The notes under the pieces were generated by a model that saw only the letters and a list, made by a program, of their open reading frames with translations, was not told the origin of the DNA and made no database searches. A program made the translations under genes and the position numbers. From Eledone cirrhosa (taxonomy: Eukaryota): DNA of 64,000 nucleotides. The stretch covers positions 242,544,001 to 242,608,000 of the forward strand of contig OZ024743.1 of NCBI GenBank assembly GCA_964016885.1. Direction: 5' to 3'. Below, piece after piece: positions 1 to 59,084 of this stretch; the stretch's first letter is position 1; every line of letters starts with the position of its first letter.

Positions 1-3000
1 ACGTGACTACTACCACCACCACCTCTAACGACACTACTACCATCACCACTAACCCTAACGTCAATACGATCATCACCCCCCCCCCCTAGCGTCAGAAGTA
101 ACATCACCGCAACCTCTAACGTCATTACTACGACCACCACCAAAACCTCTAACGTCATTACTACGACCACCAGCACCACCTCTAACGTCATTACTACGAC
201 CACCACCACCACCTCTAACGTCACTACTTTCACCATCCCTAACGTCACCAATGCTATCACCACCACCTCTAACGTCAATATTAACACCAACTCTAACGTA
301 GCTACTACCATCACCACCACCACCTCTAACGTAACTACTAGCATCACAACTAACTCTAACACTACTAGCAACACCACCACCTCTAACATCACTACTAACA
401 CAATCACCTCTAAAGTTACTACTAACATCATGACCAACACCACCTCTAACGTCACTACCACCACCACATCTAGCGTCACTACTACCACCAAATCTAACGT
501 CACTACTAGCATTACCACCACCTCTTACGTCATGACTACCACCACCACAACCTCATACGTCTCTACTACCAACACCACATCTAACGTCACTACAACCACC
601 ACTACCTCTAGTGTCACTACTACCATCACCACCACCTCCAACGACACTAGTACCAAAACAAAATCTCTAACGTCGCTACTACCACCATCACCTCTAACAT
701 CACTACTACCACCATCACCTCCAGCATCACTACTACCACCACCACCACTCTAACGTCACTTCTACCTCAACATCTAACTAAATACTACCATCACAACCAC
801 CAACTCTAACGTAACTGCTACAATCACCACTAACTCTAACGTCACTACTACCATCACCACCACCTCTAACGCCACTACCACCACTACCTCTAACGCCACT
901 GCTACTACCAACAACTCTAACGTCACTACTACCACCACCATTTCTAACGTCACTACTACCACCACCACCACCTCTAACGTTACTAATACCTCTATCGTCA
1001 TTACTACCGCCAATACCACCACCTCTAACGTCCGTACCACCACCGCCACCGCTAAGCTCACTACTACTACCACCATCTCTAACGTCTCTGTTACCACCAC
1101 CACCACCTCTAACCTCACATCTACCATCACCACCTCTAACGTCATTACTACCATCACCACCTCTAACGTCACTACTACCATCACCACCTCTAACGTCACT
1201 ACTACCATCACCACCTCTAACATCATTACTACCACCACCACCACTACTACCATCACTACCCCCTCCAACGTCAGAACTACCAACACCGCTACCTCTAACG
1301 TCACAACTACAACCACCACCACTTCTAAATTCAATAGTAACACCACCACACCTAACATCACCACTACCATGACCACCACTTCTAACGTCAGAACTTCCTC
1401 CAACAAAACCCCTAATGTCACTATTAACACCACCAACTCTAACGTCACTACAACCACCACCACCACTAATATCACTACTAACATCACTAATACGATAACC
1501 ACCACCCCCAACGTGACTACTACCACCACCACCTCTAACGACACTACTACCATCACCACTAACCCTAACGTCAATACGATCATCACCCCCCCCCTAGCGT
1601 CAGAAGTAACATCACCGCAACCTCTAACGTCATTACTACGACCACCACCAAAACCTCTAACGTCATTACTACGACCACCAGCACCACCTCTAACGTCATT
1701 ACTACGACCACCACCACCACCTCTAACGTCACTACTTTCACCATCCCTAACGTCACCAATGCTATCACCACCACCTCTAACGTCAGTATTAACACCAACT
1801 CTAACGTAGCTACTACCATCACCACCACCACCTCTAACGTAACTACTACCATCACAACTAACTCTAACACTACTAGCAACACCACCACCTCTAACATCAC
1901 TACTAACACAACCACCTCTAAAGTTACTACTAACATCATGACCAACACCACCTCTAACGTCACTACCACCACCACATCTAACGTCACTACTACCACCAAA
2001 TCTAACGTCACTACTAGCATTACCACCACCTCTTACGTCATGACTACCACCACCACAACCTCATACGTCTCTACTACCAACACCACATCTAACGTCACTA
2101 CAACCATCACCACTACCTCTAACGTCACTACTACCATCACCACCACCTCTAACGTCAGTACCACCATGACCACCTCTAACGACACACCTACTACCACAAC
2201 CTTTAACGTCACTACAACCACCACTACCTCTACTGTCACTACTACCATCACCACCACCTCCAACGACACTACTACCAAAACAAAATCTCTAACGTCGCTA
2301 CTACCACCATCACCTCTAACATCACTACTACCACCATCACCTCTACCATCACTACTACCACCACCACCAATCTAACGTCACTACTACCTCAACATCTAAC
2401 TAAATACTACCATCACAACCACCAACTCTAACGTAACTGCTACAATCACCACTAACGTCACTACTACCATCACCACCACCTCTAACGCCACTACCACCAC
2501 TACCTCTAACGCCACTGCTACTACCAACAACTTTAACGTCACTACTACCACCACCATTTCTAACGTCACTACTACCACCACCACCACCTCTAACGTTACT
2601 AATACCTCTATCGTCATTACTACCGCCAATACCACCATCTCTAACGTCTGTACCACCACCGCCACCGCTCAGCTCACTACTACTACCACCATCTCTAACG
2701 TCCCTGTTACCACCACCTCTAACCTCACATCTAACATCACCACCTCTAACGTCATTACTACCATCACCACCTCTAACGTCACTACTACCATCACCACCTC
2801 TAACGTCACTACTACCATCACCACCTCTAACATCATTACTACCACCACCACCACTACTACCATTACTACCCCCTCCAACGTCAGAACTACCAACACCGCT
2901 ACCTCTAACGTCACAACTACAACCACCACCACTTCTAAAGTCAATAGTAACACCACCACACCTAACATCACCACTACCATGACCACCACTTTTAACGTCA

Positions 3001-5620
3001 GAACTTCCTCCAACAAAACCCCTAATGTCACTATTAACACCACCAACTCTAACGTCACTACAACCACCACCACCACTAATATCACTACTAACATCACTAA
3101 TACGATAACCACCACCCCCAACGTGACTACTACCACCACCACCTCTAACGACACTACTACCATCACCACTAACCCTAACGTCAATACGATCATCATCCCC
3201 CCCTAGCGTCAAAAGTAACATCACCGCAACCTCTAACGTCATTACTACGACCACCACCAAAACCTCTAACGTCATTACTACGACCACCACCACCACCTCT
3301 AACGTCACTACTTTCACCATCCCTAACGTCAGTATTAACACCAACTCTAACGCAGCTACTACCATCACCACCACCACCTCTAACGTAACTACTACCATCA
3401 CAACTAACTCTAACACTACTAGCAACACCACCACCTCTAACATCACTACTAACACAACCACCTCTAAAGTTACTACTAACATCATGACCAACACCACCTC
3501 TAACGTCACTACCACCACCACATCTAACGTCACTACTACCACCAAATCAAACGTCACTACTATCATCACCACCACCTCTAATGTCAGAACTACCACTTCC
3601 ACCACCTCTAATGGTACTATTAACAACACCTCTAACGTCACTAAAACCACCACCTCTAACGTCACTATTACCGCCGCCTCCAACGTCACTACTACCATCT
3701 CCAACATATCTAACGTCACTATTACCACCAAAACCTCTAACATACTTACTACCAACACCTATAATGTCACTACTAACACCACCACCTCTAACGTCAGTAC
3801 TACCATCACCACCACCTCTAACGTCCTATTACCACCAATTCCCACGTCACTACTACCATCACCAACATCGCTAACGTCACCACTACCACCATCTCTAACG
3901 TCACTACTACCACCACCACCACCACCTCTAACGCCACTACTACTACCACCACTTGTGACGTCACTACTACCACCACCACCTCTAAAATCACTACTACCGC
4001 CTCAACCACCACTAACGTCACCCCCACCACCACCTGTAACGTCACTATAACTACTACCACCTCTAACGTCATCAGTAACACCAGAGCCACCTCTAACGTC
4101 ACTAATACGATAACCACCACGTTTAACGTCATTACTACCATCACCACCGCCTCTAACGTCGCTACTACCATCACCAACATCTCTAACGTCACTATACCAC
4201 CAGCACCTCTGACGTCACTACTACCAACACCTTTAACGGTAATACTACCTCTGACGTCACTACTACTACCTCTAACATCCGTACCACCACTACCATCAAT
4301 ACCTCTAACATCATTACTACCACCACCACCTCTAACGTCACTACTACCATCACCACCTCTAACACGATTACTACCACCACCACCACCACTAACGTCACTA
4401 CTACCATCGTCAGCCCTCCAACGTCAGACCTACCATCACCGCAACCTCTAACGTCACTACTACAACCACCACCACCATCTCTAACGTCACTATTAACACG
4501 ACCACACCTAACGTCACCACTACATTGACCACCACCTCTAACGTCACTACATCACCAGCCACTCTAACATCACTACTACTACCACCACCACCTCTAACTT
4601 CACTACTACCATCACCGCAACCTCTAACGTGACTACTAAAACCACCACCACCTCTAACGTCACCAATACCATCACCACCACCTCTAACTTCAGAACTTCC
4701 TCCACATCACCCCTAACATCACTACTACTACCACCATCTCTAACGTCACTACCACCACCACCACCAGCTCTAACGTCACTACTACCACCACCACCTCTAA
4801 CGTCAATAATACGATCACCACCACCTCCAACGTGACTACTACCACCACCACTTCTAACGTCACTACTACCACCTCCAACATCAATACTACTACTACCACC
4901 TTCAACGTCACTACTACCACCACCACCTCTAACGTCACTACCACCACCACCTCCAACGTGACTACTACCACCACCACCTCTAACGTCACTGCTACCACCT
5001 TAGCTCTAACTTCACTACTACCACAACCACCTCTAATGTCACTACCACTTTCACCACCTCTAACGTCACTACTACCACCGCACACCTAACGTTCCCACTC
5101 CCATCACCACCACCTTTAACGTCAGAAATTCCACCAACACCACCACCTCTAACGTCACTACTAACACCACCTCCACCGCTAACGTCACTACTAGCACCAA
5201 CTCTAACGTCACTACTACCATCACCACCACCTCTAACGTCAGAACTACCACCACCACCCCCTCTAACGGCACTACTAACACCAGCTCTAACGTCACTGAA
5301 ACCACCACATCTAACGTCACATTTACCACCACTTCCAACGTCACTACTACCATCACCCACATCTCTAACGTCACTACTACCTCCAGCACCTTTAACGTCA
5401 CTAATACCACCACCTCTAACGTCACTACTACTACCACCAACTCTAACGTCAGTACTACCATCACCACCACCTCTAACGTCACTATTACCTCCAATTCCAA
5501 CGTCATTACTACCTCACCAACATCGCTAACGTCACTACTACCACCACCTCTAACGTCACTACTAACACCACCACTACCTGTAACGTCACTACTAACACCA
5601 CCACCTATAACATCACTACT
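1..5620. repeat. Degenerate (ACC/ACT)n-TCTAACGTC minisatellite with ~1.5-1.6 kb higher-order duplication; reads as mucin-like TTTSNVTTT
   Basis: Unit about ACCACCACCTCTAACGTCACTACT. The block ACGTGACTACTACCACCACCACCTCTAACGACACTACTACCATCACC recurs at 1, 1511 and 3121. The Thr-rich frame is broken repeatedly. Confidence 0.9.
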
Positions 5621-6466
5621 AATAAATCCGAGCATTTATTAACATTAAATTAAAAGTCGAATGACATATATATATAAAATAAACACATCAAACAATTACA
5701 GGGGCTAATTTGTAAAGAGTGTAAACACACATAGTTACGGAGGTAACATTAAATATTAACAAGAACCTTGAATGCCTTGCAATACTGATTAATCTCCTTT
5801 GTATATATTCCATTGAAGAAATATATTTCACCGTTAATCGGTGAATCATAGATGTCAAATCTTGGATCATTGGCAAAGAAGATTTAACTATCTATGATCA
5901 CACGCTAAAATCACTACTGTAATTATTTGATATGTTAATTTTATATATATATATGTCATTCGACTTTTAATTTAATGTTAGTAAATGCTCGGATTTATTG
6001 CTTGGAATCTTCGAGCTTATTCCACGGGTGATATGGCGCATGCTCCTGATATTCTCAGATATGGCATCTTTAATCTAATTTTGGTAGTATTTACGGTTCC
6101 TAAGTATTCTGTTAGTAGAGCTTTTATGTTGAAAGGACTCGGCTGCTATTTCTAGCTATCGATAACCCTATTCACGCCACTGGCTTGGCGGCAGGGTGGT
6201 GTGTTTTTTTTAAAAACCACATGTGCTTTTCGTCGTTATTCTCTCATTTGCTTTTAGCGTGTGATCATAGATAGTTAAATCTTCTCATTTACCGATGATC
6301 CAAGATTTGACATCTATATTTCACCGATTAATGGTGAAATATATTTCTTCAATGGAATATATACAAAGGAGATTAATCATTATTGCAGGGTATCTTCTTA
6401 ATTTATACCTCCATAACTATGTGTGTTTACACTCTTTTATCTCCTGTAATTGCTTGATATGTTTAT
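5621..6466. mobile_element. Inverted pair of a ~525 bp circularly permuted non-coding element with a decayed hammerhead-like motif
   Basis: 5621-5680 is the reverse complement of ~5940-6000, and 5681-5910 of ~6252-6466. The right arm starts and ends with the same AATT..TTGATATGTT motif (~5921 and ~6448). Confidence 0.7.
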
Positions 6467-6641: not shown

Positions 6642-6679
<38 letters not shown>

Positions 6680-6842
6680 ACATTTTCGCTCTACATGGCT
6701 GAATACAATAAATGTAATCTGAGCTTTTCGAATATTAATAATAACATTCGATTCGTTTGCAATTATGCAAACGAGCCTCATTTTTAGCGCCATGTCAGTA
6801 GAATGAGCCCCTCATTCTTGCTCTTGACTTGGCATGTAAACA

Positions 6843-6892
6843 GAACTGCAGACATTAATGTTTCTGGGTATCACCCTTCATCAGTACAGTTC
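6843..6892 (-). ncRNA. Type I hammerhead ribozyme (family A)
   Basis: Minus strand: GAACTGTA-CTGATGA-A GGGT gat ACCC A-GAAA-CATTAATG-TC-TGCAGTTC. 8-bp stem I, palindromic stem III (ACATTAATGT), GUC site. Confidence 0.85.
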
Positions 6893-7481
6893 ACTGTTCA
6901 CCTGTCAACTGTCAGAGCTAGTGAAAATATATGCTATTTTCTAAAATATACAGTGACTGATCAGCCTGATTTGAATATTAGCAGACTGGCTGATCAGTCA
7001 GATCTGCATATCAGCCACTGATCAGCCTGATTTGAATATTAGCAGACTGGCTGATCAGTCAGATCTGCATATCAGCCTCTGATCAGCCTGATTGGCATAT
7101 TAGCAGACTACCTGATCAGTCAGATCTGCATATTAGCAGATCCACTGATCAGCCAGATCTGCATATCAGCAGACTGGCCAGTCAGTTTCCTGTATACGAG
7201 CTATAAATGGCCGGCTTTATCACATTCAAATTAATTTTAAAAAAAGTGTAGAGGGAAATTTTTTTTTTTAATGTGGCAAAGCCGGCCATTTATCGCTCGT
7301 ATACAGGAAACTGACTGGCCAGTCTGCTGATATGCAAATCTGGCTGATCAGTGGATCTGCTAATATGCAGATCTGACTGATCAGCTAGTCTGCTAATATG
7401 CAAATCAGGCCGATCAATCACTGTATATTTTAGAAAATAGCATATATTTTCACTAGCTCTGACAGTTGGCAGGTAAACAGT

Positions 7482-7531
7482 GAACTGTACTGATGAAGGA
7501 TTATACCCAGAAACATTAGTGTCTGCAGTTC
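7482..7531 (+). ncRNA. Type I hammerhead ribozyme (family A)
   Basis: GAACTGTA-CTGATGA-AGGATTATACCCA-GAAA-CATTAGTG-TC-TGCAGTTC. Core intact, stem II weakened. Confidence 0.8.
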
Positions 7532-7663
7532 TGTTTACATGCCAACACCAGAGAAAGAATGAAGGGTTCATTCTACTGACATGGCGTTAAAAATGAGGCT
7601 CGTTTGCATAATTGCAAACGAATCGAATGTTATTATTAATATTCGAAAAACTCAGATTACATT

Positions 7664-7719
<56 letters not shown>

Positions 7720-22841: not shown

Positions 22842-25800
22842 AGTCAGTCAGCGCGATCAGTCGCATATTTTGGCGTGGGAGACTATATATTAAATTTAAG
22901 ATGAATACTATCTCCGACAGTAATGCCACAACTACAGCCAGGTTGAATAACTGGTTATTCTTCTAACTATCCCTTCTGAAGACACCTTTTATTCGAATTC
23001 GTAGAGATATCCGACTAAATACATAATTTATTTTACAAGGATTTGCTACAAACAGCATGGCTGAACACAACATCAACAAAAAAATTAAGGAAGTATCGAA
23101 GACAAATAACAAAGAAGGTAATCAAACTTTATTCACTTTTAGCTACAGAAGAAACCGAAATTATAAATCGCATTTCTCTTGGAGTTGCGAACTTAATAAT
23201 GATTTATTTAATTGTTATAAAATGGCAAAAAACAATCCCTCCATTGGCTATATGAATAGAATGAAGCTACACTGGGACGAAATGCACCCAGAGCTAAATT
23301 ATTTCACAGCGAAACAATTACGCCAACAAGCGACGTTTGTTGAACGTAAAAATAAGATAAATATTATTAATTGTAAGTCCCCCACAACAAACATGGAATC
23401 AACAACACGTGCTACAGGTCGCCATGCTACTAGACTTCCTAGCAGCCAGGTCGAACAGCGCCTTGAAACAACTATGCCTGTAAGAAACTTGACACCACCT
23501 GTATCATCTAAGTCTACCTCGAATGCTGGGGAAAACACTATCGATAATAATAATAATCGAATAAATGTGACACCACGTATACCATCCGAGTCTACCTCGA
23601 CTGTTGTGGAAAATACTATCGATAATGATAATCAAAAGTATAAACAATTGAAACTTTCCCTCAGCGAAATCTTCCAGAGAGAAATTAACTCATGTATAAA
23701 TATCTCTCTTGCTGAACGTGTTAAAATGACAATGGTGAATAAAAACCCAAATAATGAAATACTACGTGTTATTGACGAAATAGGGGATGAATATTTACGA
23801 CGGATAAAAACCCCAACATTTTGGCAAATCAACGCCTGTTTATATGCCTTAGCAATGATAGTGAAGCATTATCTTCGTAATAGCAGAGATATTAACAAGA
23901 ACAAAACACCACCAAAAATACCATCATATATAACTAAAATAGAAAAAAAGAGTGCTGACCTACGAAAAAACATAGGACATGTGATAATGCTCCTTACATG
24001 CAACCAAACACAAAAAAAACTCACTCCTCACCAACAAAGAGTGAAAAATAAAATAGAGACGATGTTTGGTAAGAGTAGAACCAGAACTCTCCAATATAAG
24101 CTGATCACCCTCAAACAAGAATTGAGAGCTGTTAGCGAAAAACGACGATACCTAAAGAAGGTAGATGAGAGAAAAATGCTTAATAAAAGATTCAGACGAA
24201 ACCAAACATCAGTCTATAGAGATATGAAGGGCAAAATAATAAGTGTCACTGAGGCCCCATTAGGGAAAGACATAGATTCCTTTTGGAGAAAAATATGGGG
24301 TGAAAAGAAGAATTTCAACCAAGATGCAGTGTGGCTAAGAGAAATCCAAAAGAACTATTGCTCCTACACTACAACAAAAACATACGAAATAAGTGAGGGT
24401 ACCCTTGAGACTGTGATAAGAAAACTCCAAGATAAGAAAACACCAGGAAGAGACATAATTGTTGGCTACTGGTACAAAAAACTAATATTCTATCGGAAGT
24501 ATCTTACTGACCTCTACCAACAAGTTCTTAAGGGAGATACACTTATACCAGAATGGTTGACATTAGCACAAACGTTACTGGTCCCCAAGAACAAAGACAC
24601 CCACTTGGCAAAAAAATATCGGCCCATTGCATGCCAGAATCTGATGTATAAGATGTATACAGGCTGCCTGAACCTATTCCTCCAAGATCACTGTGAAAAT
24701 AATAACATCATCACAGATGAACAAGCAGCTGGAAAGAAAAGGGTTTGGGGATGTGCCGAACAACTCCTAATCAACAAAACTGCGATGTCGGAGGTGCGAC
24801 AACTTAGGAGGAATATGACGACAGTCTGGCTGGACTACAGGGAAGCTTTCGATTCTGTTCCCCACTCTAGGATGATAGAGGCCCTCCAACTTGCTAAAGT
24901 CCCAGACATTATTGTCAGAGCCATAGAGAGGCTGTCTTCTTCTTGGGATACTATCCTAAGGTTAAAGACAGAGAGGGAGGACTCTATTTTCACTGATAAA
25001 ATAAAATATTGCAGGGGTATATTTCAGGGGGACAGTCTCTCTGTGGTATTCTTCATCTTGTCATTAAACCCCTTGTCCTTTCTGCTCAAGAAATGTGAGG
25101 GATACATCAGTGGCTCACAGAAGGACAGAAATACGAAACTAACCCATAACTTCTTTTTGGACGATCTGAAACTCTATGCCAAGAACATAGATGAATGAAG
25201 AAAATTCTTGACCTGGTTACAACGTTCTCAAAGGATATAGGAATGGAGTTTGGCCAAGATAAATGCTCATACATGACTGTAAAGCGGGGAAAAACAACAA
25301 CCCAATCTAGCAACATTGTCATCAATGGTCTAACTGTTTCACCGATATCTGATGAGGACTGCTACAGATACCTGGGGATAGATGAGAACATATCCTATAA
25401 TGGTATCTGTAATAAAGAACGCGTAACCAGGGAATACTACACTCGATTAAGAAAGATCTGGTCATCGGAACTCTCTGCGCAAAACAAAACAGTGGCTCAC
25501 AATGTGCTTGCTGTGTCTGTCCTAACGCCAACGTTTGGAATACTCAATTGGACGATAGACGAAATCCGAGCAGTTGATGTTGGAACTCGAAAAATACTGA
25601 ACAACACCGGAAACTTCCACATGAACGGTGACATAGACCGCCTTTACTTGAAACGTAAGCAGGGAGGCAGAGGCCTAACATCAGTCCAGACAACATTTGA
25701 ATGTCGCATCATATCTCTCCGACATCTACGAACCTCGAAGCGTAGGAGCCCGCTTCTCGAGAAAGTCTATCTGCATGAAACAGATAAGATCATGAGAGTT

Positions 25801-26948
25801 GGGAAGGAACTCCTTGAGAGATATTCCCTGTGTGATAATCAAAAACTCACACCCAGGGATGTCGCTCAGCAGTATCGCAGAGAATCCATGGATGAAAAAC
25901 TGCATGCCTATCAGCAAAAAATCATGCATGGATATGTTGCCAGGAAGCTCCAGAGTGAGAGTAATATAGATAAGGAAAGTAGTCTATCTTGGACCAACAA
26001 CCGCTATATTAGCTCCCACTTTGATGGATACGCCTTTGCAATCCAGGAATAGGAGATTAGCACGAAATATCTGATTCACAAAAGAGATAGGGATGCAGGC
26101 AAAACACCTAGATGTGATAACAAGTGCAGACTCTGCAGAACTAACATCGAGGATATCACCCATGTCATCAGCAGCTGTCCAAAGATGTCATCGCTGTACT
26201 ATCTACCTTTGAGGCATGATGTAGTGGCCAAAACACTGTACAATGCAGTTCGTAAAAAAAGATAGCCCCGATAATAAACACATTAAAAGCTACAACAATG
26301 TGGAAGACATCCATGTACATAATATGAAAGAGTACTGGTGGAATGTTCCAGTAAAAACCTCAATAAAATGCAGGCATAACAGACCAGATATTGTGATATG
26401 GGACAGGGAGAAGAAAGTATGCACAGTAGTGGAAATTAGCTGCCCAGCAGATGCCAATATAATATCAAAGATTAGTGAAAAGGAGAATATTTATGCAGAA
26501 CTGATGAGAAATCTGCAGATACTCCACCCTGATTACACCTTCAGATTTATGCGTGTGATTATTGAGGCACTGGGATATGTTAGTAACTGCCTCAATAAAA
26601 ATCTTGAGAAGCTAGGCTTCACGGGAACAGAAAGAACACAATTAGTTAGGAAACTAGAAGTACAATCCATTAATGGAACAGTAAAAATATGTAAAACATT
26701 CCAAAAATTGTGCATCTAATAACTACATATACACATGTACAGATACAAAGCATATACACATGCACACATACAACTCAAAACATCCACATCTACACAGACA
26801 ATAACATCCATATCTACACATGAATGCATGCATACATACATATCTACCTAGTTGATGTGTAAATTCCAATGAGAGAGTCTTGTGTCTATGTTAGAAACCA
26901 ACTCTCTCTCTATTGGTAAAACTTTGTGAAATTATAAAACCAGAAGAA
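22842..26948 (+). mobile_element. Near-full-length R4/Dong-like non-LTR retrotransposon (RLE type) inserted in (CATA)n
   Basis: Single long ORF with RT and restriction-like endonuclease. (CATA)n abuts both ends (22558-22841 and 26949-26973). Confidence 0.8.
23057..26719 (+). pseudogene. RT + CCHC + RLE polyprotein, disrupted
   Basis: N-terminal GYMNRMKLHWDE..HPE. RT motifs YRPIAC, WLDYREAFDSVPH, GIFQGDSLS, FFLDDLKLY, YRYLG. Also CRLC..EDITHVISSC, RHD and RPDIVIWD..VVEISCP. Frameshift ~25196, stop at 26052, frameshift ~26255. Confidence 0.92.
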
Positions 26949-31713: not shown

Positions 31714-32089
31714 ATATATATATGCTGTAGAAACGCCCGGAACTCATCCGTCGGCGTCCTGACGCTTTACCTTTACCTATATATATATATATGTATATAT
31801 ACAGAGAGCGCGAGAGAGAGGGGGAGGAGAGAGCGCGAGAGAGAGGGAGGGTGAGAGACAGAGTGACGGGGATTCCCCTGTATGAATAAAAACAGTGTTC
31901 GACTTTGAAAAGCTGTAATATAAAACTCTTGATACAGCATATTGGAATTCGAATTATCCGAAAACACATAGGATTAGCGATTCTAGATGTAATTACTTAC
32001 ATATTAACGAAACACGTGTCAGTTACATAATAAATATTCATCCTTCGATTGTGAAATGGTGTATTCATGAAATTTATTAATATATAATA

Positions 32090-32295
32090 ATAATATTCGA
32101 TTCGTTTGCAATTATGCAAACAGCCTCTTTTTTAAAGCCATGTCTGATCAGTGGGTCTGTTAATATGCAGATCTGACTGGTCAGCCAGTCTGCTAATATG
32201 CAGATCTGACTGGTCAGCCAGTCTGCTAATATGGAAATCAGGCCGATCTGTCACTGTATATTTTAGAAAATTACATATATTTTCACTAGCTCTGA
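32090..32295 (+). mobile_element. Fragment of family A element (no hammerhead retained)
   Basis: TTCGATTCGTTTGCAATTATGCAAAC and the CTGCTAATATGCAGATCTGACTG subrepeats match 6680-7668. Confidence 0.75.
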
Positions 32296-38983: not shown

Positions 38984-39105
38984 AGGAGGTGAGTTTTATT
39001 GTAGCACAATAAAGCAATGCAAATATCGGATAAGTAGCACTCAACAGTTTATAGGACTGGAGTATAAATAATATAAAATCAAAAGATGGTTAAAAGAGTT
39101 CCATG

Positions 39106-39176
39106 TATTTTATTATGCGCATTTCAAAAACAAATATCATCATGGTATGATATTTGCGTTCTCATCAGATAAAATA
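39106..39176 (-). ncRNA. Type I hammerhead ribozyme (family E)
   Basis: Near-exact reverse complement of the 40339-40409 motif; core intact. Confidence 0.85.
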
Positions 39177-40338
39177 GGGAGACATGATATGAAGCTTAAA
39201 AAACACTTGCGAGCAGTGACGTGTTAAATCAACATATGAAAAATAAAATTAGAAGGATATATGAGATTGGAAAAAAGGAAAGAAAGGGGGAAAGAAAAGG
39301 TAAGGAAGAGGAAGAAAAAATATAATAATAAGGAAAGGATGACGGAGGAGGAGTATAAGAAGGAAGGATGAGAGAGGAGGAGAAAATGAGTGAGAGAGAT
39401 AACCTTTAATACTGAGAAACATTGTTTCACAGAAAAAAAATAACCGTTGTAATACATAATTTAAAAAAGATGTAGTAATTTAAAGTTAATGAGGTTTATG
39501 AATGGTGATGCTTATGATTAAAGAAAAAGGAATTAAGAATACTATTTATTTTTAATATATACTAATATTACCATTAGAGAAATTTTGTAAACATTTTTTT
39601 GACGTTATATATTTTTTCTTCCTTGAATTTTTTCTTTCTTCTCTCCTTCCATGCTCGTATTAAATCTATTATTTACTTTTTCCTATAGAACCAAACTTCG
39701 ACCCTAATTAATTCCTCTAAGTTCATAATTCATTTAACCATATCTTCATTCACCTTATCTTCTTAATATATTTTATTTTAATAATTGTTTCTACTTTTGG
39801 CACAAGGCCAGCAATTATCCCAGTGTATTACTGGTACTTTATGTTATCGACCCCATAAGGATGAAAGGCAAAGTTAACCTCGGCGGGATTTGAACTCAGT
39901 CCGTAAAGGGACGCAACTGTGCTGTAAAGCAATAAATTCCTTTTCGCACATCTTATTAAACCCTTCAATATATAAACCTTAAATAAATAGTATTCTTAGT
40001 TCTTTTTTCTTTAATCATAAGCATCACCATTCATAAACCTCAATAACTTTTAATTTCATAATTTTTTTAAATTATGTATTATCTTACAACGGTTTTTTTT
40101 CTCTGTGAGACAGTGTTTCTCAGTATTAAAGGTTATCTCTCTCTCTCTCACTCATTTTTCTCCTCCTCTCTCATCCTTCCTTCTTATACTCTTCCTCCGT
40201 CATCCTTTCCTTATTATTATATTTTTTTCTTCTATCTATATTTTTCTTCCTCTTCCTTACCTTTTCTTTCCCCTCTTCCTTTCCTTTTTTGCAATCTCAT
40301 ATATCCCTCTAATTTTTAAGCTTCATATCATGTCTCCC

Positions 40339-40409
40339 TATTTTATCTGATGAGAACGCAAATATCATCCCATGATGATATTTGTTTTTGAAATGCGCAT
40401 AATAAAATA
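40339..40409 (+). ncRNA. Type I hammerhead ribozyme (family E)
   Basis: TATTTTAT-CTGATGA-GAACG CAAATATCAT cccatg ATGATATTTG TTTTT-GAAA-TGCGCA-TA-ATAAAATA. 8-bp stem I, palindromic stem III ATGCGCAT, AUA site. Confidence 0.87.
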
Positions 40410-40434
40410 CATGGAACTCTTTTAACCATATTTT

Positions 40435-40522: not shown

Positions 40523-40715
40523 AATATATGTATTAACTTGCTCAGGTTGTCGAGAACAATACATAGACCAGACCAAAAACAGCCTCCGCCAACGCATGAC
40601 TGTCCATAGATCCCAAATTAAAATACGGGAATACAGGAAAATACCACTGAGTGAACACATTGATACCCGTGCCGCCCAAAATCATCCCAACTTCAGAATC
40701 TTTCCCCATTATCAC
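40521..40715 (+). pseudogene. Penelope-like element GIY-YIG endonuclease fragment
   Basis: Translates LIYVLTCSGCREQYIDQTKNSLRQRMTVHRSQIKIREYRKIPLSEHIDT..PNFRIFP: the IY-x3-C-x2-C-x3-YI(G/D)QT..L..R...H..H pattern of PLE endonucleases. Followed by a CCAAT/TATA-like region similar to the reverse complement of 17696-17750. Confidence 0.85.
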
Positions 40716-41205
40716 AACAACGAACCTCTTTACTACTACTACTACACACACACACACACATATTTGTTTTGAAAGACTTATTTTTCAGTGACTTCTCAAT
40801 CAGCCGACACAAACCTACATTTGGCGCAAAATCAATTTTTAACATTCACATGACCTCTACCGACCAATCAAAATTGTTTTGACCACAAGAATTTTTGCAA
40901 CACGAATTGGCGCGAAACTTATTTTAATACATCTGGAGCCACTTTTTTCACATAAAAACAGGTAGAATTCCCAAAACTAATCAGATCAGAGCAAACATCA
41001 CGGACGCTCTATCTCAAAATTATTTTTGAAAAGCATTAGAAATGTGCAACCGGTAAAACTTAAAACCAAAACTGAATACTAACCAATACTATTACTAATT
41101 CTCACTTATTCCTAATTAAACTATTTTTCACTGTGAACAATTTGTCAGCATTTTCTTTTCCATTTACCAATATATCATAACTTGTGTGTTACACCTCTAT
41201 TCTTT

Positions 41206-41280
<75 letters not shown>

Positions 41281-41359: not shown

Positions 41360-41457
41360 CAAAATATGGTTAAAAGAGTTCCATGTATTTTATTATGCGC
41401 ATTTCAAAAACAAATATTATATATATATATATATATACAGAGAGAGAGAGAGAGGGC

Positions 41458-44342: not shown

Positions 44343-44910
44343 AGATCGGCCTGATTTGCATATTAGCAGACCGGCTGATCAGTCAGATTTGCATATTAGC
44401 AGATCCACTGATCAGCCAGATTTACATATCAGCAGACTGGCCAATCAGTTTCCTGTATACGAGCCATAAATGGCCGGCTTTTCCTCATTCAAATTAAAAA
44501 AAGAAAATTTTCGCTCTACATGTCTGAATACAATAAATGTAATCTGAGTTTTTTGACTATTAATAATAACATTTGATTCGTTTGCAATTATGCAAACAAG
44601 CCTCATTTTTATAGCCTGCTAATATCTAAATAGCCTGCTAATATGCAAATCAGGCCGATCAGTCACTGTATATTTTAGAAAATAGCATATATTTTCACTA
44701 GCTCTGACAGTTGACAGGTGAACAGTGAGCTGTACTGATGTGGGTGATACCCAGAAACATTGGTGTCTGCAGTTCTGTTTACATGCCAACACAAGAGCAA
44801 GAATGAAGGGTTCATTCTACTGACATGGTTATAAACATGAGGCTTCTTTGCATAATTGCAAACGAATCGAATGTTATTATTAATATTCGAAAAACTCAGA
44901 TTACATTTAT

Positions 44911-44912
<2 letters not shown>
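44343..44912. mobile_element. Family A inverted pair spanning the monomer junction
   Basis: 44343-44610 matches ~7075-7235 joined directly to ~6683-6785. 44630-44912 matches ~7390-7668. Confidence 0.85.
44727..44775 (+). ncRNA. Hammerhead (family A) with one core A missing
   Basis: GAGCTGTA-CTGATG-TGGGT gat ACCCA-GAAA-CATTGGTG-TC-TGCAGTTC. Confidence 0.65.
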
Positions 44913-44954
<42 letters not shown>

Positions 44955-47949: not shown

Positions 47950-50900
47950 TTCTTCACCTACAGAACAATGTAGAGAGAAGGCCCATTTACACGAGCCATT
48001 CTCGCTTCTTTCACCCACCTTTCATAAAACTGTCTGGGGCCAAGCACTTCTCTCTCCATCCTGATCCTTCTTCCGAAGTGGTATCAGAAGAAGTAAACCA
48101 GGTGATGGCCGGAGAGAAAGTCACCCGACCTCAGACCTTTCAGGCGCGTCCACCACACAACCTCTTTCATCATGGCTATTACGCACAGAAAGACCGCCTC
48201 TGCTTCGTTTCTGAAGGGAGGCGGCGGCTTGATGTTCACCACAGACTCGGCGGTTAATCAAATCGGCGCCACACGCGACAGCAGTCGTTCGACGTAGCCC
48301 CACAGATCGGCAACGCCCGGGCAGTGTACCAGTGCATGCGCAACGGTTTCCTCGTCGCGCACGCATCTGGGACAGATCTTTTTCGCTGGATCCCTGCCCG
48401 GGCGCCCGTGTCTGTAGAGCTTTTCTCGAACGGGCAGAGCCCCCCGGTAACACTGCCAGGCTACGGACCTCTGGAAGTTGTCCATGGGTCCCGGGCCGAA
48501 AGTTCTACCGAACAGGCTGGCCAGTTCGTCCTCCTCCATGCCTAGCGACTCTCCAAGGGTGTCGTCGCCCCTGCTAGCCACCAGCCCTCTATAGAATGTC
48601 GAGGTGGATTCTCTACTGACGGTCGGGTCCGCTTGCCAGATAGCCGTGAGCGCCTGGGCACACTCGGTGTGCCAGTTGCCCAGTTTTCTCGGTCTTTGCT
48701 TCACCCAGGATTGCAGCTCGCTGAGCGAGACGAGCTGTGGGAAGGCTCGCCTCACAAACGGGGCCCACACCGGCTGACCGGTGAGGAATACCTGTAGATG
48801 CCGTAGCCTCAATGCGTGCCTACGCATCAACAGCCACGGCATACCCAGCCCTCCTTTCGAAGGGTGCTGGCAGCAGATGGATCTCCTCACCATGGGAGGC
48901 CGCTTCTTCCAGAGGACCTGGAAGAGCATGCGTTCCATGATGGTGATCTTTTCCTTGGGGCAAGGCACGACGGTCAGGCGGTAGCAGATGACGGACGCTA
49001 TGTAAGCGTTCGTCACCTCCGCCCGACCTTTCAGTGATAGTTTGCACTTGGCCCACTTCTGGGTCAGCGCAAACACCCTGCTCGTCACCTCGCCCAAATT
49101 CTTCTCCACCTGGAGGTCCGGTCCGAACCAGACCCCGAGCAGCTTCACCGGGCCCTCCGTCCACCGCCCGACGACACCGTCTAACGGCATCGGTTTGCCC
49201 CTCCACGTTCCGAGTTGCAAACTGACTGACTTGTCCCGGTTCAGCCTAGCCCCCGTCAGCCTTTCGTATTCCTCCAGTAGGGTGGCGATCGCCCCGATTT
49301 CCGAGGCGTCCGCCACCATTACTGTTACGTCGTCGGCATAGGCCGAGACCGCTTTGTGCAATCCCGGTTCCAGGGGTATGCTCCGCAGCAACTCCAACTT
49401 CCGCAGCAGTGGCTCGAGAGTCAATACGTACAGAAGGGAGGAGAGGGGGCACCCCTGTCTGATGGACCGGGTGATTTGAAACGGCTCCGAGAGGTAGCCG
49501 TTTACTTTAATCCTAGAGTAGATGTTGCCACTGTGCATGGCAGAAATCCAGCCCCTGAAAACGGGTCCGAAGCCCGCCGCCGCTAGCACCGCATCCAGGT
49601 AACCATGGTCGACCCTATCGAACGCCTTAGATTGATCCAAGTTGATCAGGGCCCCACCAAAGCCGGGTTCGTTGCCAACCCTCTCTATGATGTATCGCAT
49701 GAGGTGGAGGTTGTCGTGAATGGACCTGGACGGGATAGCGCATGTCTGCGCGTCTCCCACCAAACCACCCACCACAAGCGCCAACCTCTTCGCCAACACC
49801 TTGGCCAAAATCTGTAACTCTGCATTCAGCAGAGTTATGGGCCTAAAGTTACTTAAGTCGTCCCCCTTGCTCTCGTCCTTCCTCACTAGCGTGACCACGC
49901 CCTTGGTCACAGAACAGAGAATTCTCCCGTTCTGTTGCCAGTTGCAATAGACAGCCTCGAGGAGTTCGGAGAACAAGACCGGCATAGCTAAATAAATTTC
50001 GTATGGTAGACCATCGAGACCCGGAGATTTGCGTCTGCTGCATTGGTTGAGCGCTTCCCCGATTTCAGTGGCTGTGATTGGCCTTTCGCAGCACTCCGCT
50101 TCGCCGCTCGAAAGACGCGGTAGACCGTCGAGGTATGGACCGAAGTCCACATCCCAGTCCGGCCCCCCGCCCCCTCCGAACAGTCGAGCAAAGTGCCTTT
50201 GAAAGGCCTCGCACATCCGCTCAGGTTCAAGGATCACCCGTCCATCCTGGTCTCGCAAAGACCGAATGGTGGATTTAATCCCACTCTTGGCTTCTGTCAC
50301 GCGGGCCCAGCTAACAGCTTTGGTCCCCTCGTTTCCTAAAGCACGTATTTTACTTCGGACAACGCAGCCTTCGTGCTTCGCGTCAAAGAACTGGCTCAAC
50401 GCCGTTCTCGCCGCTAACACTCTGGCTACGCCTCCGCTCCTAATCGCCTATTCTAGTTTATCTGTTAACTCCCTTTCCTTCCTATTTCTATTCGCCGCTA
50501 GTTCCTTACTGTAACCTATCGAACTTACTCTAATCTCTCTCTTTAGAGATACCCACCACCTACTGTTGACGATCGCTCCCGTCAACCGCATCTTAACTAA
50601 GCTACTAATCCGGTTCCTGTAATCTTTCTTTGCCGGCAAGGACAAGTTCATCTTCCAGTAACCGGGACCCTGTCTATGCGTTCTATCAAGGTTGACCACG
50701 CAGGTCACTAATTTGTGATCTGAATAGCCAACCATGAACAATTCTGGACAACTAAATACGTCCCTATCCTTACTCCTAACCAAAAACCTATCTAGGTACG
50801 ATCTAGATTGTCCACTGCGGTTTGCCCAGGTCCAGGTTGGCGCAGTTGGACAATCTAGTCGAAATCTATCGACCAGGTCGAATCGATCGAGTAACCCCTT

Positions 50901-51390
50901 GAGGCTGCTACACCCACCTCTATCGGGACATGCCCCTGCATAGTCCCAACGCGCATCTAGGATTCCATTCCAGTCCCCCACTAAAAGCAGGGAACGCGAC
51001 GTTCCTAGAAAAGTCTCCAGTCGCTGGAAGAAGTCGGCTCTTTCAGCCCCGAAGGGGGCATAAAGACCGACCATTCTGAAAGCCCCGCCTTCACCGCCTC
51101 CGACGTCCAGCACCAGTAATCGACCCCCCGAGTCCGAGTGAACAATCTGTACGTCGAGAGCCAGACGTTTATCCAGCAGTACGGCAACCCCCCCCCCCCC
51201 CGCCTCCGGGTTGACAGAGAGATGCGTGCATCTCAAAGTCATCGAAGGCGGGAGCCAGCTGTCGCACGCTGCTGATCCGACTCTCGCAAACAACCATCAC
51301 ATCTATACTTCGTGACCTGAGGTCACTTAGTAGCTTTTCTTGCTTCCAAGCTGAGCCCAGGCCACGCGCGTTCAAACAGCCAACTCTCAA
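47950..51390 (-). pseudogene. LINE ORF2: AP endonuclease + reverse transcriptase + C-terminal Zn motif
   Basis: CLNARGL, GLYAP, LLVGDWN, SYLDRF, SDHKLV; KSPGLDGLP, NFRPITLLN, LDQSKAFDRV, IRQGCPLS, AYADDV; CPRC..EETVAHALVHC. Frameshift at the C-run ~51190, stop at 50448, frameshift ~48260. The 3' boundary is approximate. Confidence 0.93.
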
Positions 51391-55730: not shown

Positions 55731-58455
55731 TGATCTGTTCGGACGTTCTTCTTGCTCGCTCCCAGTAAGTCGCTTTATGTACCTGTTATAATTATTTGTT
55801 GTTAAATTTTTCTTGTTGTGTTGGAGATATAAGCCCTTGGACTTTGCCCTGTGACGGGGAACGTATAATATTTGGGCCTTTTGGTCTAAATATTTGAAGA
55901 ATATTTAAATATTTTACTTTTGAAAATAAAATTAAAAAAAAAAACATGGCTGAGCCACGCCCACCAGCAATATGTCTGCTGTCGTGTGACAACGGCGTAA
56001 AAGTTGAGAGGAGGGTTAGTGAAATTCATACAACAGACACCACCACAAACAACGTGAACAAAGACAACACTGAGAACACTAATTTTGAAAAAATTACCAC
56101 ACTAACTACAACAATAACAGCGTCAACCAAAATACAGACAACAGAAAAAAAAATGACAACAAATGCAACAACGATATTAACACCACTAACAAGAAAATAA
56201 ACAACGACAATACGAACAGCAACAATACAAATTGCACCGAGAACAACAACAACGGTGGCACCAGAAACACAACCAACTACAACAGTTATAACAGCAACAA
56301 CACCAACAACACTGTTTGTAGCAGTAGCAACAGCAACAACACCAACAACAAGACCAGTAGCACCAGTAGCGGCAGCAATAATGGTGCCGCTGAAAAAGGG
56401 GCCACTTCTTTCGCAGGTGTGGTCCGAAATATAGAAACAGTGCTAGTCACGGAGGAGGAGGTGGCAGTCGCAAGAGCCATGGTGTCGAGAAATGACAATA
56501 GAGTTTCCCTGAAACCTCCACCCGATTTCTTCAAAGACCAGCAGCTGCGCATGGTGACTTACCGCACCGTAAAAAAAATGACACATAGGGTGGGGAGAGC
56601 CACGGAGGCCCAAATCGAAAAGGCCTTGGGGTACGTCTGGGCGCGCAAAACCCACATCACCCGAGGTAAAAAGTACGCCACAGTAGACGTACTTTTCGCT
56701 ACCCCCCAAGAGGCGAAGCCTCACTCTTTGGAAACCCTAAAGAGTAAGGAGATAGTCTTGGTGCCCTCCTACAGCGGGCAGAAAATTGTGAGGGTCAAAG
56801 TGACCCAGGTCCCGCCCGACGTGCTCATACCTTGCGAAGAGAGAACTGGTCAGGAATAGGCATGCAAAGGCTAATACAGACTGATCAAGAGTGCATCGAG
56901 GCCATCCCAGACATCATAGACCTCGAAGAAGGGCTCCAACTCCCTATAATCGTGGAAGGTAGGCGCCCAAAGTGCTATTTCTGTGGACAGAAGGGTCACC
57001 TCAGGGCCTTCTGCCCGCAGAAGACAGCCAAGAAGAGAGCCCCCTCCTTCCGACGCCTGATCCGTTGCTACCAAGAGCAGGGCAGGCAACAGAGGCAGAA
57101 GACTCTTCTATGGTGAGTAGGAGGGCAACGCCCGTGGCACGGACAACTAAAGCAGCGGCAGCAGTGGCGGTAACACCCACAGTCGCAGTAGCTACACCGG
57201 CGGCAAAATCGCCGGAGCGAGCTTCACTACCACCACCAACGGCAGTGGAGCTCATACCCCTCCCAGACGCCACGGAATCTGACATGGCGTATGAGGCGGG
57301 AGGGAAGTGGCAAACGGTCTGCCACAAAAAACAAAAAAGGAAAAACCCCTTAGCTTCACCCTCCAAAAGTGAAGGCAGACAAAGAGGGGTAAAGGCTGCA
57401 AGGAGACTTGCAGCAATACCACCACCATCACCATCACCACCGCAAGTATCACCACCAACAACAACCACACCACCACCAACATTGCAAACACAACAAAACA
57501 CACACATCCAACAGCAACAAAATCACCCCTCACCTCAAAAATCTACACAGCCATAAACATGGCAAATAAAGAACTCCTCCAACATATAAAGCAGCACACA
57601 GACATTACATAAAAAAACTACTAGACCACACCAACATCAAGAACTCTCCCGACAAACATTAACATCATTGAAATCAAAATAGAACACTACAAACTTTTAA
57701 AACAAAAATTCCCCAACGCAGTTGGAGACTTCAGAGGTTCGGTTACCAAGAGGATATACACCGATATCTTCTTGGAAACACCCATGACCAGCCAAAGGGA
57801 CGGTTCTCAGTAGAACCGTCCCTTCACCACACGATCAAGGTAAGTGATCCTTTCTCACTTACCCCGTTTCTCATCCAACATGGCCGTACTTAGAATAGGC
57901 AGTATAACTGTACGTGGCCTGGGGTCATCTTGGAAGCAGGGTCACCTGCTCAACGACCTCAGGTCACTAAACATAGATGTGGGGGCCATCAGCGAGACCA
58001 CCAGAATCTCCGAAGCGCGAGCCTTCGCACCGATCTTCGGTGGCTACGATGTATACGCATCTCCCAGCCGTCCAGGATCGGGGGGAGGGGTTGCCGTGCT
58101 TTTTCGGAGAGGCTTGGATCTCGCCATACGGGCCATCTTCCTGGACCCAGAAGGTAAGTCGGTGTTGCTGGACGTGACCGGCAGCGAAGGCAATGCTTTC
58201 AGGCTAGTAGCCGTCTACGCTCCAACAGGGGCAGGACGGCCAGATTTCTTCAGACGTCTAGAGACCTTTCTTGGAACGTCCCGCTCTTTAGTGTTAGTGG
58301 GCGATTGGAATGGTATCTTAGATGCACGCTGGGATTATGTGGGGCTAGTAGACTGGGCCGGAGGGTATAAAAGCCTCAACAACCTGCTCAGACCGTTTGA
58401 ACTGTCTGAGAGGTATAGACTGGATTATCCGAATGTGCCAATGTGGACATGGTCA
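55731..58455 (+). mobile_element. Second Tx1/L1-type LINE: 5' UTR, disrupted ORF1 and AP endonuclease, 3'-truncated
   Basis: IIVEGRRPKCYFCGQKGHLRAFCP. APE region FFRRLETFLGTSRSLVLVGDWNGILDARWDY is nearly identical to the 50448-51293 protein. Homology stops after WTW (~58452). Starts at an (ATT)n SINE tail. Confidence 0.88.
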
Positions 58456-59084
58456 AAAGCATTGTTTAAATATAAAGGCTTTTGTGATTTCTTCAGCAAT
58501 GAAACCACTACAATTAGATATCTTGATTGAGGGCAGCTACGAGCAGCTTTTTACTTCTATTAAGTCCATATATAGCCGAAAGTGGATTTAATTATAAATC
58601 CAGTATCAAATAGAAAACAATTAATCAGTTTAACATCGATGGATGTTATTACCTAATAATTCAAACACAGACGATTTTATCTTAGTATTCGTGTTATTGG
58701 TAACGGCTTTCGCTCCGATCCATCTCATTGAGAATTTAAACTTCATTTAAAATCTATTTTATTATTAATTTGAAAAGGCACGTGACTGAGTGGTAAAAGA
58801 ATTGGATTCGCAATTGTGAGGTTGTGAGTTCGATTCCTGAACCGGGGGATTCGTTATCTCCTTGAGCAAGACACTATATTTCACCTTGCTCCTTTTACCT
58901 GGAGTTGCGACCGATAGATAGTATTGGCAATTGGAAAGACCAACGGAAACATTGTTTCCTCGGTCCGATTTGACGAAAGTCGTTCGACTTTGGATTCATG
59001 AATGTCACATGGACGAAATATTGGTGACACGTAATCTCAGCTGGTTTGGGTATTACGTTGATTGGCGGGGACAAGAGACACAAG

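What the first reader, a model, noticed from the sequence alone, without database searches (positions are those of the whole stretch)
6680..7668. Family A: 1 kb palindrome of two hammerhead monomers, with evidence of a circular or multimeric template
Seen: each arm has an HHR with an 8-bp stem I and GUC site. The sequence that starts the left arm (ATTTTCGCTCTACATG, ~6682) follows the arm's far end directly in the copy at 44480-44530, and again in inverted form at 7246-7290. The unit is therefore head-to-tail or circular (~480-565 bp depending on the number of 30/60 bp subrepeats). Inference: reverse transcription of a circular or concatemeric RNA, as proposed for retrozymes. A read-through transcript would also form ~450 bp of dsRNA.
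Basis: partly seen in the sequence, partly recalled or inferred. Interest (0 to 1): 0.75.

Follow-up and report, generated by a model that had tools for sequence, protein, structure and literature searches.

The report
Head-to-head retrozyme with Penelope footprint
This 1-kb palindrome is one of thousands of insertions of a ~435-base non-coding repeat that carries a hammerhead-ribozyme motif; its back-to-back layout, with one short and one long end in TA repeats, matches this genome's Penelope-type jumping genes, whose enzyme likely pasted it in, possibly by copying a small RNA circle.

Summary
In detail: 6682-7667 is two head-to-head arms in (TA)n, each about one turn of a head-to-tail unit with a type I hammerhead motif. 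It is not special. A 19-mer of the unit has 4,480 exact hits in this 3-Gb genome, and 49 of 80 sampled insertions are head-to-head, 0 tail-to-tail. Direct arrays reach about 2.8 units. Outer ends fall at two U-rich zones about 30 nt apart; 70 of 73 two-ended insertions have one short and one long end, as do 10 of 10 clear palindromes of an autonomous RT+GIY-YIG Penelope-like family here. So this is a metazoan non-LTR retrozyme likely inserted by Penelope machinery priming from both sides of a cut. A circular template is suggested, not shown: arms stop just short of one full unit 3-5 times too often (discovery P=6e-5, replication P=0.03). A pile-up of 5' ends at the ribozyme cut did not replicate. 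No RNA data; no autonomous partner identified. The scan has reported the same kind before, on other DNA in this and other genomes. New member of a known kind.

The parts
6652..6679 (.). (TA)n target tract, left flank
6682..7245 (-). Left arm: about one full turn of the unit (424 of 432 reference positions; 564 nt with extra subrepeats), ending at the long 3' zone
6682..6706 (-). One-sided tail: sequence between the short and the long 3' end, present on this arm only
6836..6901 (-). Type I hammerhead motif; core starts 6884; predicted cut between 6851 and 6850; extended stem I with 2-nt bulge, 4-bp stem II with flanking A and A, 3-bp stem III
   Evidence: activity untested
6956..7178 (-). 33/61-nt quasi-palindromic subrepeats (expanded in this arm); predicted to form a long hairpin in the RNA
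7240..7250 (.). Inner junction of the two 5' ends (7245/7246)
7246..7667 (+). Right arm: about one full turn (425 of 432 reference positions), ending at the short 3' zone
7321..7416 (+). 33-nt subrepeats, about 3 copies
7473..7538 (+). Type I hammerhead motif; core starts 7490; predicted cut after 7523; stem II has a mismatch
7667..7716 (.). (TA)n target tract, right flank
32079..32295 (.). Third, short head-to-head copy of the family, without hammerhead
44344..44915 (.). Second head-to-head copy: minus arm 44344-44611 crosses the unit joint, plus arm 44632-44912 ends at the short zone; its hammerhead (44735) lacks core A9

Best explanation
The palindrome is one insertion of an abundant non-coding, hammerhead-bearing head-to-tail repeat (a metazoan non-LTR retrozyme) that was likely pasted into a TA tract by a Penelope-like RT/endonuclease priming from both sides of the cut, possibly on a circular RNA. 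Steps: (1) a more-than-unit copy is transcribed (inferred); (2) the hammerhead cuts out monomers, which close into circles (predicted; stem I brings both ends together); (3) a Penelope-type enzyme cuts (TA)n (target shown; enzyme inferred); (4) one DNA end primes at the short U-rich zone and the other about 30 nt further 3' (two end zones and their pairing shown; priming inferred); (5) the two cDNAs, of unrelated lengths, join at 1-5 nt microhomologies or short fillers (junctions shown), giving a head-to-head insert with a tail on one side. At this locus each cDNA ran about once round the unit. The confidence is for retrozyme plus Penelope-type two-sided insertion; for a circular template alone about 0.5.
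For: Architecture: head-to-head 49 of 80, 20 of 49 and 28 of 39 insertions, tail-to-tail 0 in all three sets. End pairing short+long: 40 of 42 (P=2e-10 against independent choice), 11 of 11, 19 of 20. Same rule in autonomous RT+GIY-YIG elements of this genome (Pfam): 10 of 10 clear F1 palindromes (1 more intermediate, 2 cut off) and 1 of 1 F6. This matches the published PLE layout (PMC8557442 passages) and the two RT start sites and both-strand extension of the Anolis PLE protein (PMC11167929). Direct arrays up to about 2.8 units with 5' ends all round the unit. Arms, and tandem units, of one insertion share diagnostic alleles: mismatch 0.19 and 0.17 against 0.41 and 0.39; identical in 36 of 59 and 34 of 59 loci against 20 and 15 expected. 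Monomers fold as stable circles, z -6 to -12 in 5 of 5 extracted. Hammerhead stem I changes keep pairing: U-A to G-C in 8 of 217 distinct motifs, and several pairs in a homologous sister family (read by eye). Arms stop at 420-432 positions, just under one unit: 11 events, 5-fold, P=6e-5 (includes this locus's two arms); 5 events, 3.2-fold, P=0.03 in the two new sets.
Against: No autonomous element with sequence similarity to the unit among about 95 PLE-bearing loci, so the enzyme is assigned by footprint only. The 5'-end pile-up at the cut site (8 events, 6-fold) did not replicate: 0 of 56 with the preset filter; 1 of 28 and 2 of 47 after boundary refinement. Most unit-length stops of long-ended arms lie in a T tract where joining is easy and boundaries are blurred. 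This locus's arms differ at 4 of 11 diagnostic sites (6.4 expected at random) and in subrepeat number, so they may come from two RNAs. The isolated 76-nt motifs fold only weakly better than shuffles (z -1.4 to -2.0) and Rfam does not recognise them. Core conservation of 95-99% is what the whole ~5%-diverged family shows, so it is not evidence of selection. The fold z is inflated by the subrepeat hairpin. In the cited preprint 8 of 9 tested retrozyme dimers did not cleave.
Confidence: 0.82

Rival explanations
1. Same element and enzyme, but the template is a linear, uncut or partly cut multimer transcribed from a tandem master; no circle is involved.
For: Some arms start at or near the cut site, also one unit upstream (L321, L419), which needs a linear 5' end. 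No array above about 2.8 units was found. Hammerhead mutants did not affect insertion by the Anolis PLE in vitro (PMC11167929). Not exclusive of the best explanation.
Against: 5' ends lie all round the unit with no fixed start; excess of arms just under one unit for both end types; units within an array share alleles.
Confidence: 0.4
2. The arms are 5'-truncated end stubs (pseudo-LTRs) of a protein-coding Penelope-like element, not a separate non-coding element.
For: Identical insertion geometry to autonomous PLEs. One copy is joined head-to-head to an old PLE ORF (L183; single case).
Against: Copies run round the unit into the next unit and not into an ORF, up to three hammerheads in a row. 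tblastn of a 784-aa PLE over 91 family loci found only neighbouring insertions. No similarity to sampled PLE UTRs.
Confidence: 0.08
3. Foldback or MITE-type DNA transposon with long terminal inverted repeats inserting at TA.
For: Long inverted arms, internal subrepeats, TA-rich targets.
Against: The two termini are systematically different (70 of 73); arm lengths and inner junctions vary freely; 31 of 80 insertions are not head-to-head; direct multimers; compensated hammerhead stem.
Confidence: 0.02
4. The palindrome arises by fold-back self-priming of a single cDNA, as proposed for bdelloid Penelope (PMC3846280).
For: Arms share alleles; a minority of junctions are near-symmetric.
Against: Most junctions join unrelated positions; the inverted arm often extends beyond the other arm's end by the tail, or is the longer arm, which copying one cDNA back cannot give directly.
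Confidence: 0.1

Closest known systems
Metazoan non-LTR retrozymes (Cervera and de la Pena 2020, PMC7229834; bioRxiv 10.64898/2026.07.22.740005)
   Same: Non-coding head-to-tail unit of a few hundred nt, one type I hammerhead per unit, GC below 50%, highly self-paired monomer, thousands of copies, PLEs in the same genome.
   Different: Mostly dispersed sub-unit to 2-unit arms, not long arrays; head-to-head two-ended insertions and a one-sided tail are not described in the parts read; cleavage and circular RNA are not shown here; no pLTR homologue found.
Insertion units of endonuclease-bearing Penelope-like elements (PMC8557442; PMC3846280; Anolis PAc, PMC11167929)
   Same: Partial tandems, inverted 5'-truncated copy at the 5' side, tail at one end only, (TA)n targets, two RT start zones, hammerhead upstream of the 3' end.
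   Different: No ORF; the unit closes on itself; full-size stem I and stem III, not the minimal PLE hammerhead; ends lie 140-175 nt behind the cut site.
Non-autonomous Chlamys elements such as MRC1 (PMC8557442 passage)
   Same: Non-autonomous PLE passengers with multicopy head-to-tail insertions.
   Different: Those generally resemble their autonomous partner at the 3' end and lack canonical hammerheads; no such partner was found here.
LINE-1 twin priming (recalled)
   Same: Both target ends prime reverse transcription, giving a 5' inversion joined by microhomology.
   Different: Here both primers use fixed zones about 30 nt apart and the arms overlap in sequence; no poly(A).

Membership tests
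Metazoan non-LTR retrozyme | Tandem head-to-tail unit of about 150-450 bp with a hammerhead in consecutive units | tested here: met
   432-443-nt unit; dimers and trimers of the motif
Metazoan non-LTR retrozyme | Type I hammerhead with intact core and three stems | tested here: met
   All core positions present, stems pair, compensatory changes; no Rfam hit; A and A at the base of stem II
Metazoan non-LTR retrozyme | No coding capacity, no LTR/PBS/PPT layout | tested here: met
   No ORF of 120 aa or more over the element; variable 5' ends; PBS and PPT not searched specifically
Metazoan non-LTR retrozyme | Highly self-paired monomer | tested here: met
   Circular fold z -6 to -12, 63-68% paired, 5 monomers, 25 shuffles each
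Metazoan non-LTR retrozyme | Self-cleavage of transcripts | not testable with these tools
   Genomic proxy (5' ends at the cut site) seen in one set and not replicated
Metazoan non-LTR retrozyme | Expressed as linear and circular monomer RNA | not testable with these tools
   Genomic proxy: excess of arms just under unit length
Autonomous EN+ Penelope-like element | ORF with RT and GIY-YIG endonuclease | tested here: not met
PLE-mobilised element (insertion signature) | Inverted 5'-truncated copy, one-sided tail of about 30-40 nt, partial tandems, microsatellite target | tested here: met
   same in autonomous families
PLE-mobilised element (insertion signature) | Sequence shared with the pLTR or 3' end of an autonomous partner | tested here: inconclusive
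   None in the sampled PLE families; only the best 150 GIY-YIG hits were listed and 50 fetched
Foldback/MITE DNA transposon | Identical terminal inverted repeats at both ends | tested here: not met
   Ends differ in 70 of 73 two-ended insertions

The most novel reading that the evidence does not exclude
A dimeric Penelope enzyme holds one small RNA circle, primes both ends of the cut DNA at two fixed sites about 30 nt apart, and each RT stops when it meets its own start after one turn; this locus is a complete fossil of that event, and the family's arm lengths are a genomic proof of circular-RNA retrotransposition in an animal.
Probability: 0.35. Interest if true: 0.65.

Novelty: new member of a known kind. 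Interest (0 to 1): 0.36.

Why it matters
Which enzyme moves animal retrozymes, and whether circles are the template, are stated as open in PMC7229834 and the 2026 preprint. This family links a retrozyme to Penelope machinery by insertion footprint, with the autonomous elements of the same genome as an internal control, and offers two countable predictions (end pairing, unit-length stop). The ideas themselves are in print (PLE as mobiliser; circular template and opposite-strand hammerhead pairs in PMC4209133), and the scan has already noted younger families in this genome that show the same pattern, so this older family adds a case, not a concept.

Tried and rejected
No RNA holder listed for the unit; four runs of unrecorded kind, contigs only, one study, laid on the locus: an 87-nt contig crosses the inner junction without differences but with only 24 letters on one side, and may come from the assembly's own sample, so it was not used as support. 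Rfam: only hairpin-driven miRNA matches below their cut-offs. Search for the autonomous partner by blastn, tblastn and a family profile: none. Idea that the body is a deleted ORF between two pLTRs with a fixed start near reference position 366: rejected, since 5' ends continue all round the unit and that cluster sits at the base of the subrepeat hairpin. 5'-end pile-up at the cut site as proof of in vivo cleavage: not replicated. Long tandem masters: best-40 searches with 1.4-, 1.9- and 2.5-unit queries found none above about 2.8 units (lower bound only). Target-site duplications were not resolvable in (TA)n and were not scored. A sequence look-up in earlier findings was empty.

Full report
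1. Observation. The region 6682-7667 is an inverted repeat with arms 87.5-91.7% complementary, between two (TA)n tracts. A motif scan finds hammerhead cores at 6884 (-) and 7490 (+), each with an 8-bp stem I, a 3-bp stem III and a GUC site. The copy at 44344-44915 and the centre of the palindrome both run across the joint between the end and the start of the unit. Rfam recognises no hammerhead here, and the isolated motifs fold only weakly better than shuffles.

2. The family. The window lies in a 3.0-Gb animal genome; earlier scan notes call it octopus-like, which I did not test. Two 19-mers of the unit have 2,865 and 4,480 exact hits, 0 for reversed controls. With copies about 5% from the majority I estimate roughly ten thousand arms; this is an inference. 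I used a real 432-nt unit from L004 as ruler (V1 = first base of the core; cut after V34). Best-40 searches give direct arrays of 1.4-1.9 units with two hammerheads and two arrays with three (L068, L132); these sets are selected for length. No long satellite was found, but the searches give lower bounds only.

3. Insertion anatomy. Set 1 is the first 100 hits, merged to 81 insertions, 80 after dropping one segmental duplicate. Set 2 is 49 further loci. Set 3 is 39 further loci; its motif forces one arm to be long-ended or internal. Head-to-head: 49 of 80, 20 of 49, 28 of 39; tail-to-tail: none. In the ribozyme sense, 3' ends fall in two U-rich zones, about V165-178 and V196-212, nearly always followed by (AT)n. 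Where both arms end in such a zone, one is short and one long in 40 of 42, 11 of 11 and 19 of 20; head-to-head pairs with a non-standard end (7, 9 and 8) were left out of this count. The window's palindrome obeys the rule. Inner junctions join unrelated positions, mostly with 1-5 nt of overlap or a short filler (50 junctions).

4. Internal control. The genome holds several RT+GIY-YIG families. They also insert head-to-head in (TA)n with two 3' ends about 35 nt apart; 10 of 10 clear palindromes of the commonest family are short+long (one more intermediate, two cut off by the locus edge, whose output was cut in the middle but complete for this family). This is the published PLE layout: partial tandems, inverted 5'-truncated copy, tail at one end, (TA)n bias (PMC8557442, passages; PMC3846280, passages). 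The Anolis PLE protein cuts AT-rich DNA, extends both strands and starts at two internal RNA sites that define the tail (PMC11167929, parts 1-2 of 4). No sampled PLE shares sequence with the unit, so the partner is unknown; the commonest family looks younger than this repeat.

5. The ribozyme. All core positions are present in the majority; stem I extends with a 2-nt bulge; stem II has four pairs with an A on each side at its base; stem III has three pairs. Common variants keep pairing, one pair swaps U-A to G-C in 8 of 217 distinct motifs, and a homologous sister family has a rewritten but paired stem I (by eye). High column conservation alone is not evidence, since the whole family is similarly conserved. 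Monomers cut site to cut site (5 obtained from 8 loci tried) fold as circles far better than shuffles, partly because of the subrepeat hairpin. Activity is untested; at this locus the right-arm stem II is damaged.

6. Template. Arms of one insertion, and units of one array, share diagnostic alleles more than chance (the pair counts are not independent, one search uses one pair per locus), so both arms usually come from one source. This locus is a weak example (4 of 11 sites differ). For a circle: arms stop at 420-432 positions five times more often than in the neighbouring length classes (11 events, P=6e-5, pool of set 1, and non-duplicate loci, including this locus), and 3.2 times in sets 2 and 3 together (5 events, P=0.03; set 2 alone P=0.08). 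Five short-ended arms stop at V181-190, outside the T tract, while most long-ended ones stop in it, where boundaries blur. For a cut linear RNA: 5' ends at V33-37 were six-fold enriched in set 1, but this failed to replicate (0 of 56 with the preset filter, although three filtered-out arms start at V34-36; 1 of 28 and 2 of 47). Both templates may be used.

7. Comparison with what is known. It meets the sequence-level definition of a metazoan non-LTR retrozyme (PMC7229834, parts 2-3 of 6 and passages; bioRxiv 10.64898/2026.07.22.740005, parts 1-3 of 5); cleavage and circular RNA could not be tested. Those papers propose PLEs as mobilisers from co-occurrence and pLTR similarity. PMC4209133 (passages) already mentions opposite-strand hammerhead pairs 100-700 bp apart and proposes circular templates for PLE tandems. 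Six literature searches showed no paper describing the PLE insertion footprint on a retrozyme or a unit-length stop; I saw listings for most hits and no supplements, which may hold such cases. Earlier scan notes (unchecked, seen after my analysis was largely done) report the same reading for other families in this genome and in others; they are not counted as support.

8. Verdict. Real feature; an old, ordinary-looking member of an abundant retrozyme family whose palindromic form records Penelope-type two-sided insertion. Both arms being one full turn makes it a tidy example for the circle hypothesis, which remains about even. New member of a known kind; interest 0.36.

Noticed in passing
L174:1328-1579, L185:1507-1749, L306, L051, L294, L157: Sister family homologous to this unit (profile E 7e-8 and 3e-7), 430-465 nt, with a hammerhead that has a different, still paired stem I and a minimal palindromic stem III; forms trimers and head-to-head inserts. 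May be the ~460-470-nt family of earlier scan notes.
   Followed up: partly
L313, L331-L360: Older subfamily of the element (83-89% to the main one) with a longer loop II and a G-C for U-A swap in stem I in some copies.
   Followed up: partly
L004, L014, L024, L043, L073, L313 and others; reference position 140: A ~190-nt SINE-like repeat has inserted again and again at the same ATTATT site of the unit, with duplications of different length (5-19 nt); 8 of 80 sampled insertions are split there. The same repeat lies at window 39787-39900.
   Followed up: partly
window 39080-40430 and 41360-41415: A second hammerhead family (long stem II, palindromic loop III) as an inverted pair about 1.2 kb apart, with (TA)n ends; more copies in 10 or so fetched loci.
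   Followed up: no
window 40524-41210: 5'-truncated stub of a very abundant, young RT+GIY-YIG Penelope-like family (9,034 candidates; many 784-aa open frames, some preceded by a second frame of up to 455 codons); no canonical hammerhead was found in its UTR by my scan.
   Followed up: partly
L166, L167, L168, L176, L181; window 17540: Another PLE family with a minimal hammerhead about 380 nt behind the stop codon and two 3' ends.
   Followed up: partly
L183:4000-6574: A 1.7-unit arm joined head-to-head to a truncated, older PLE ORF; single case, could be a mixed two-template insertion or chance.
   Followed up: partly
window 1-5621: 5.6-kb degenerate tandem array (about 27-nt period) with long Thr/Ser-rich open frames; mucin-like exon or minisatellite.
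   Followed up: no
window 23027-26719, 48258-51296, 57844-58530: Large LINE-type RT and endonuclease reading frames (by eye).
   Followed up: no
L273 and L274 (L232 and L233): Two identical insertions 1.2 Mb apart, a segmental duplicate; one was dropped from the counts.
   Followed up: yes
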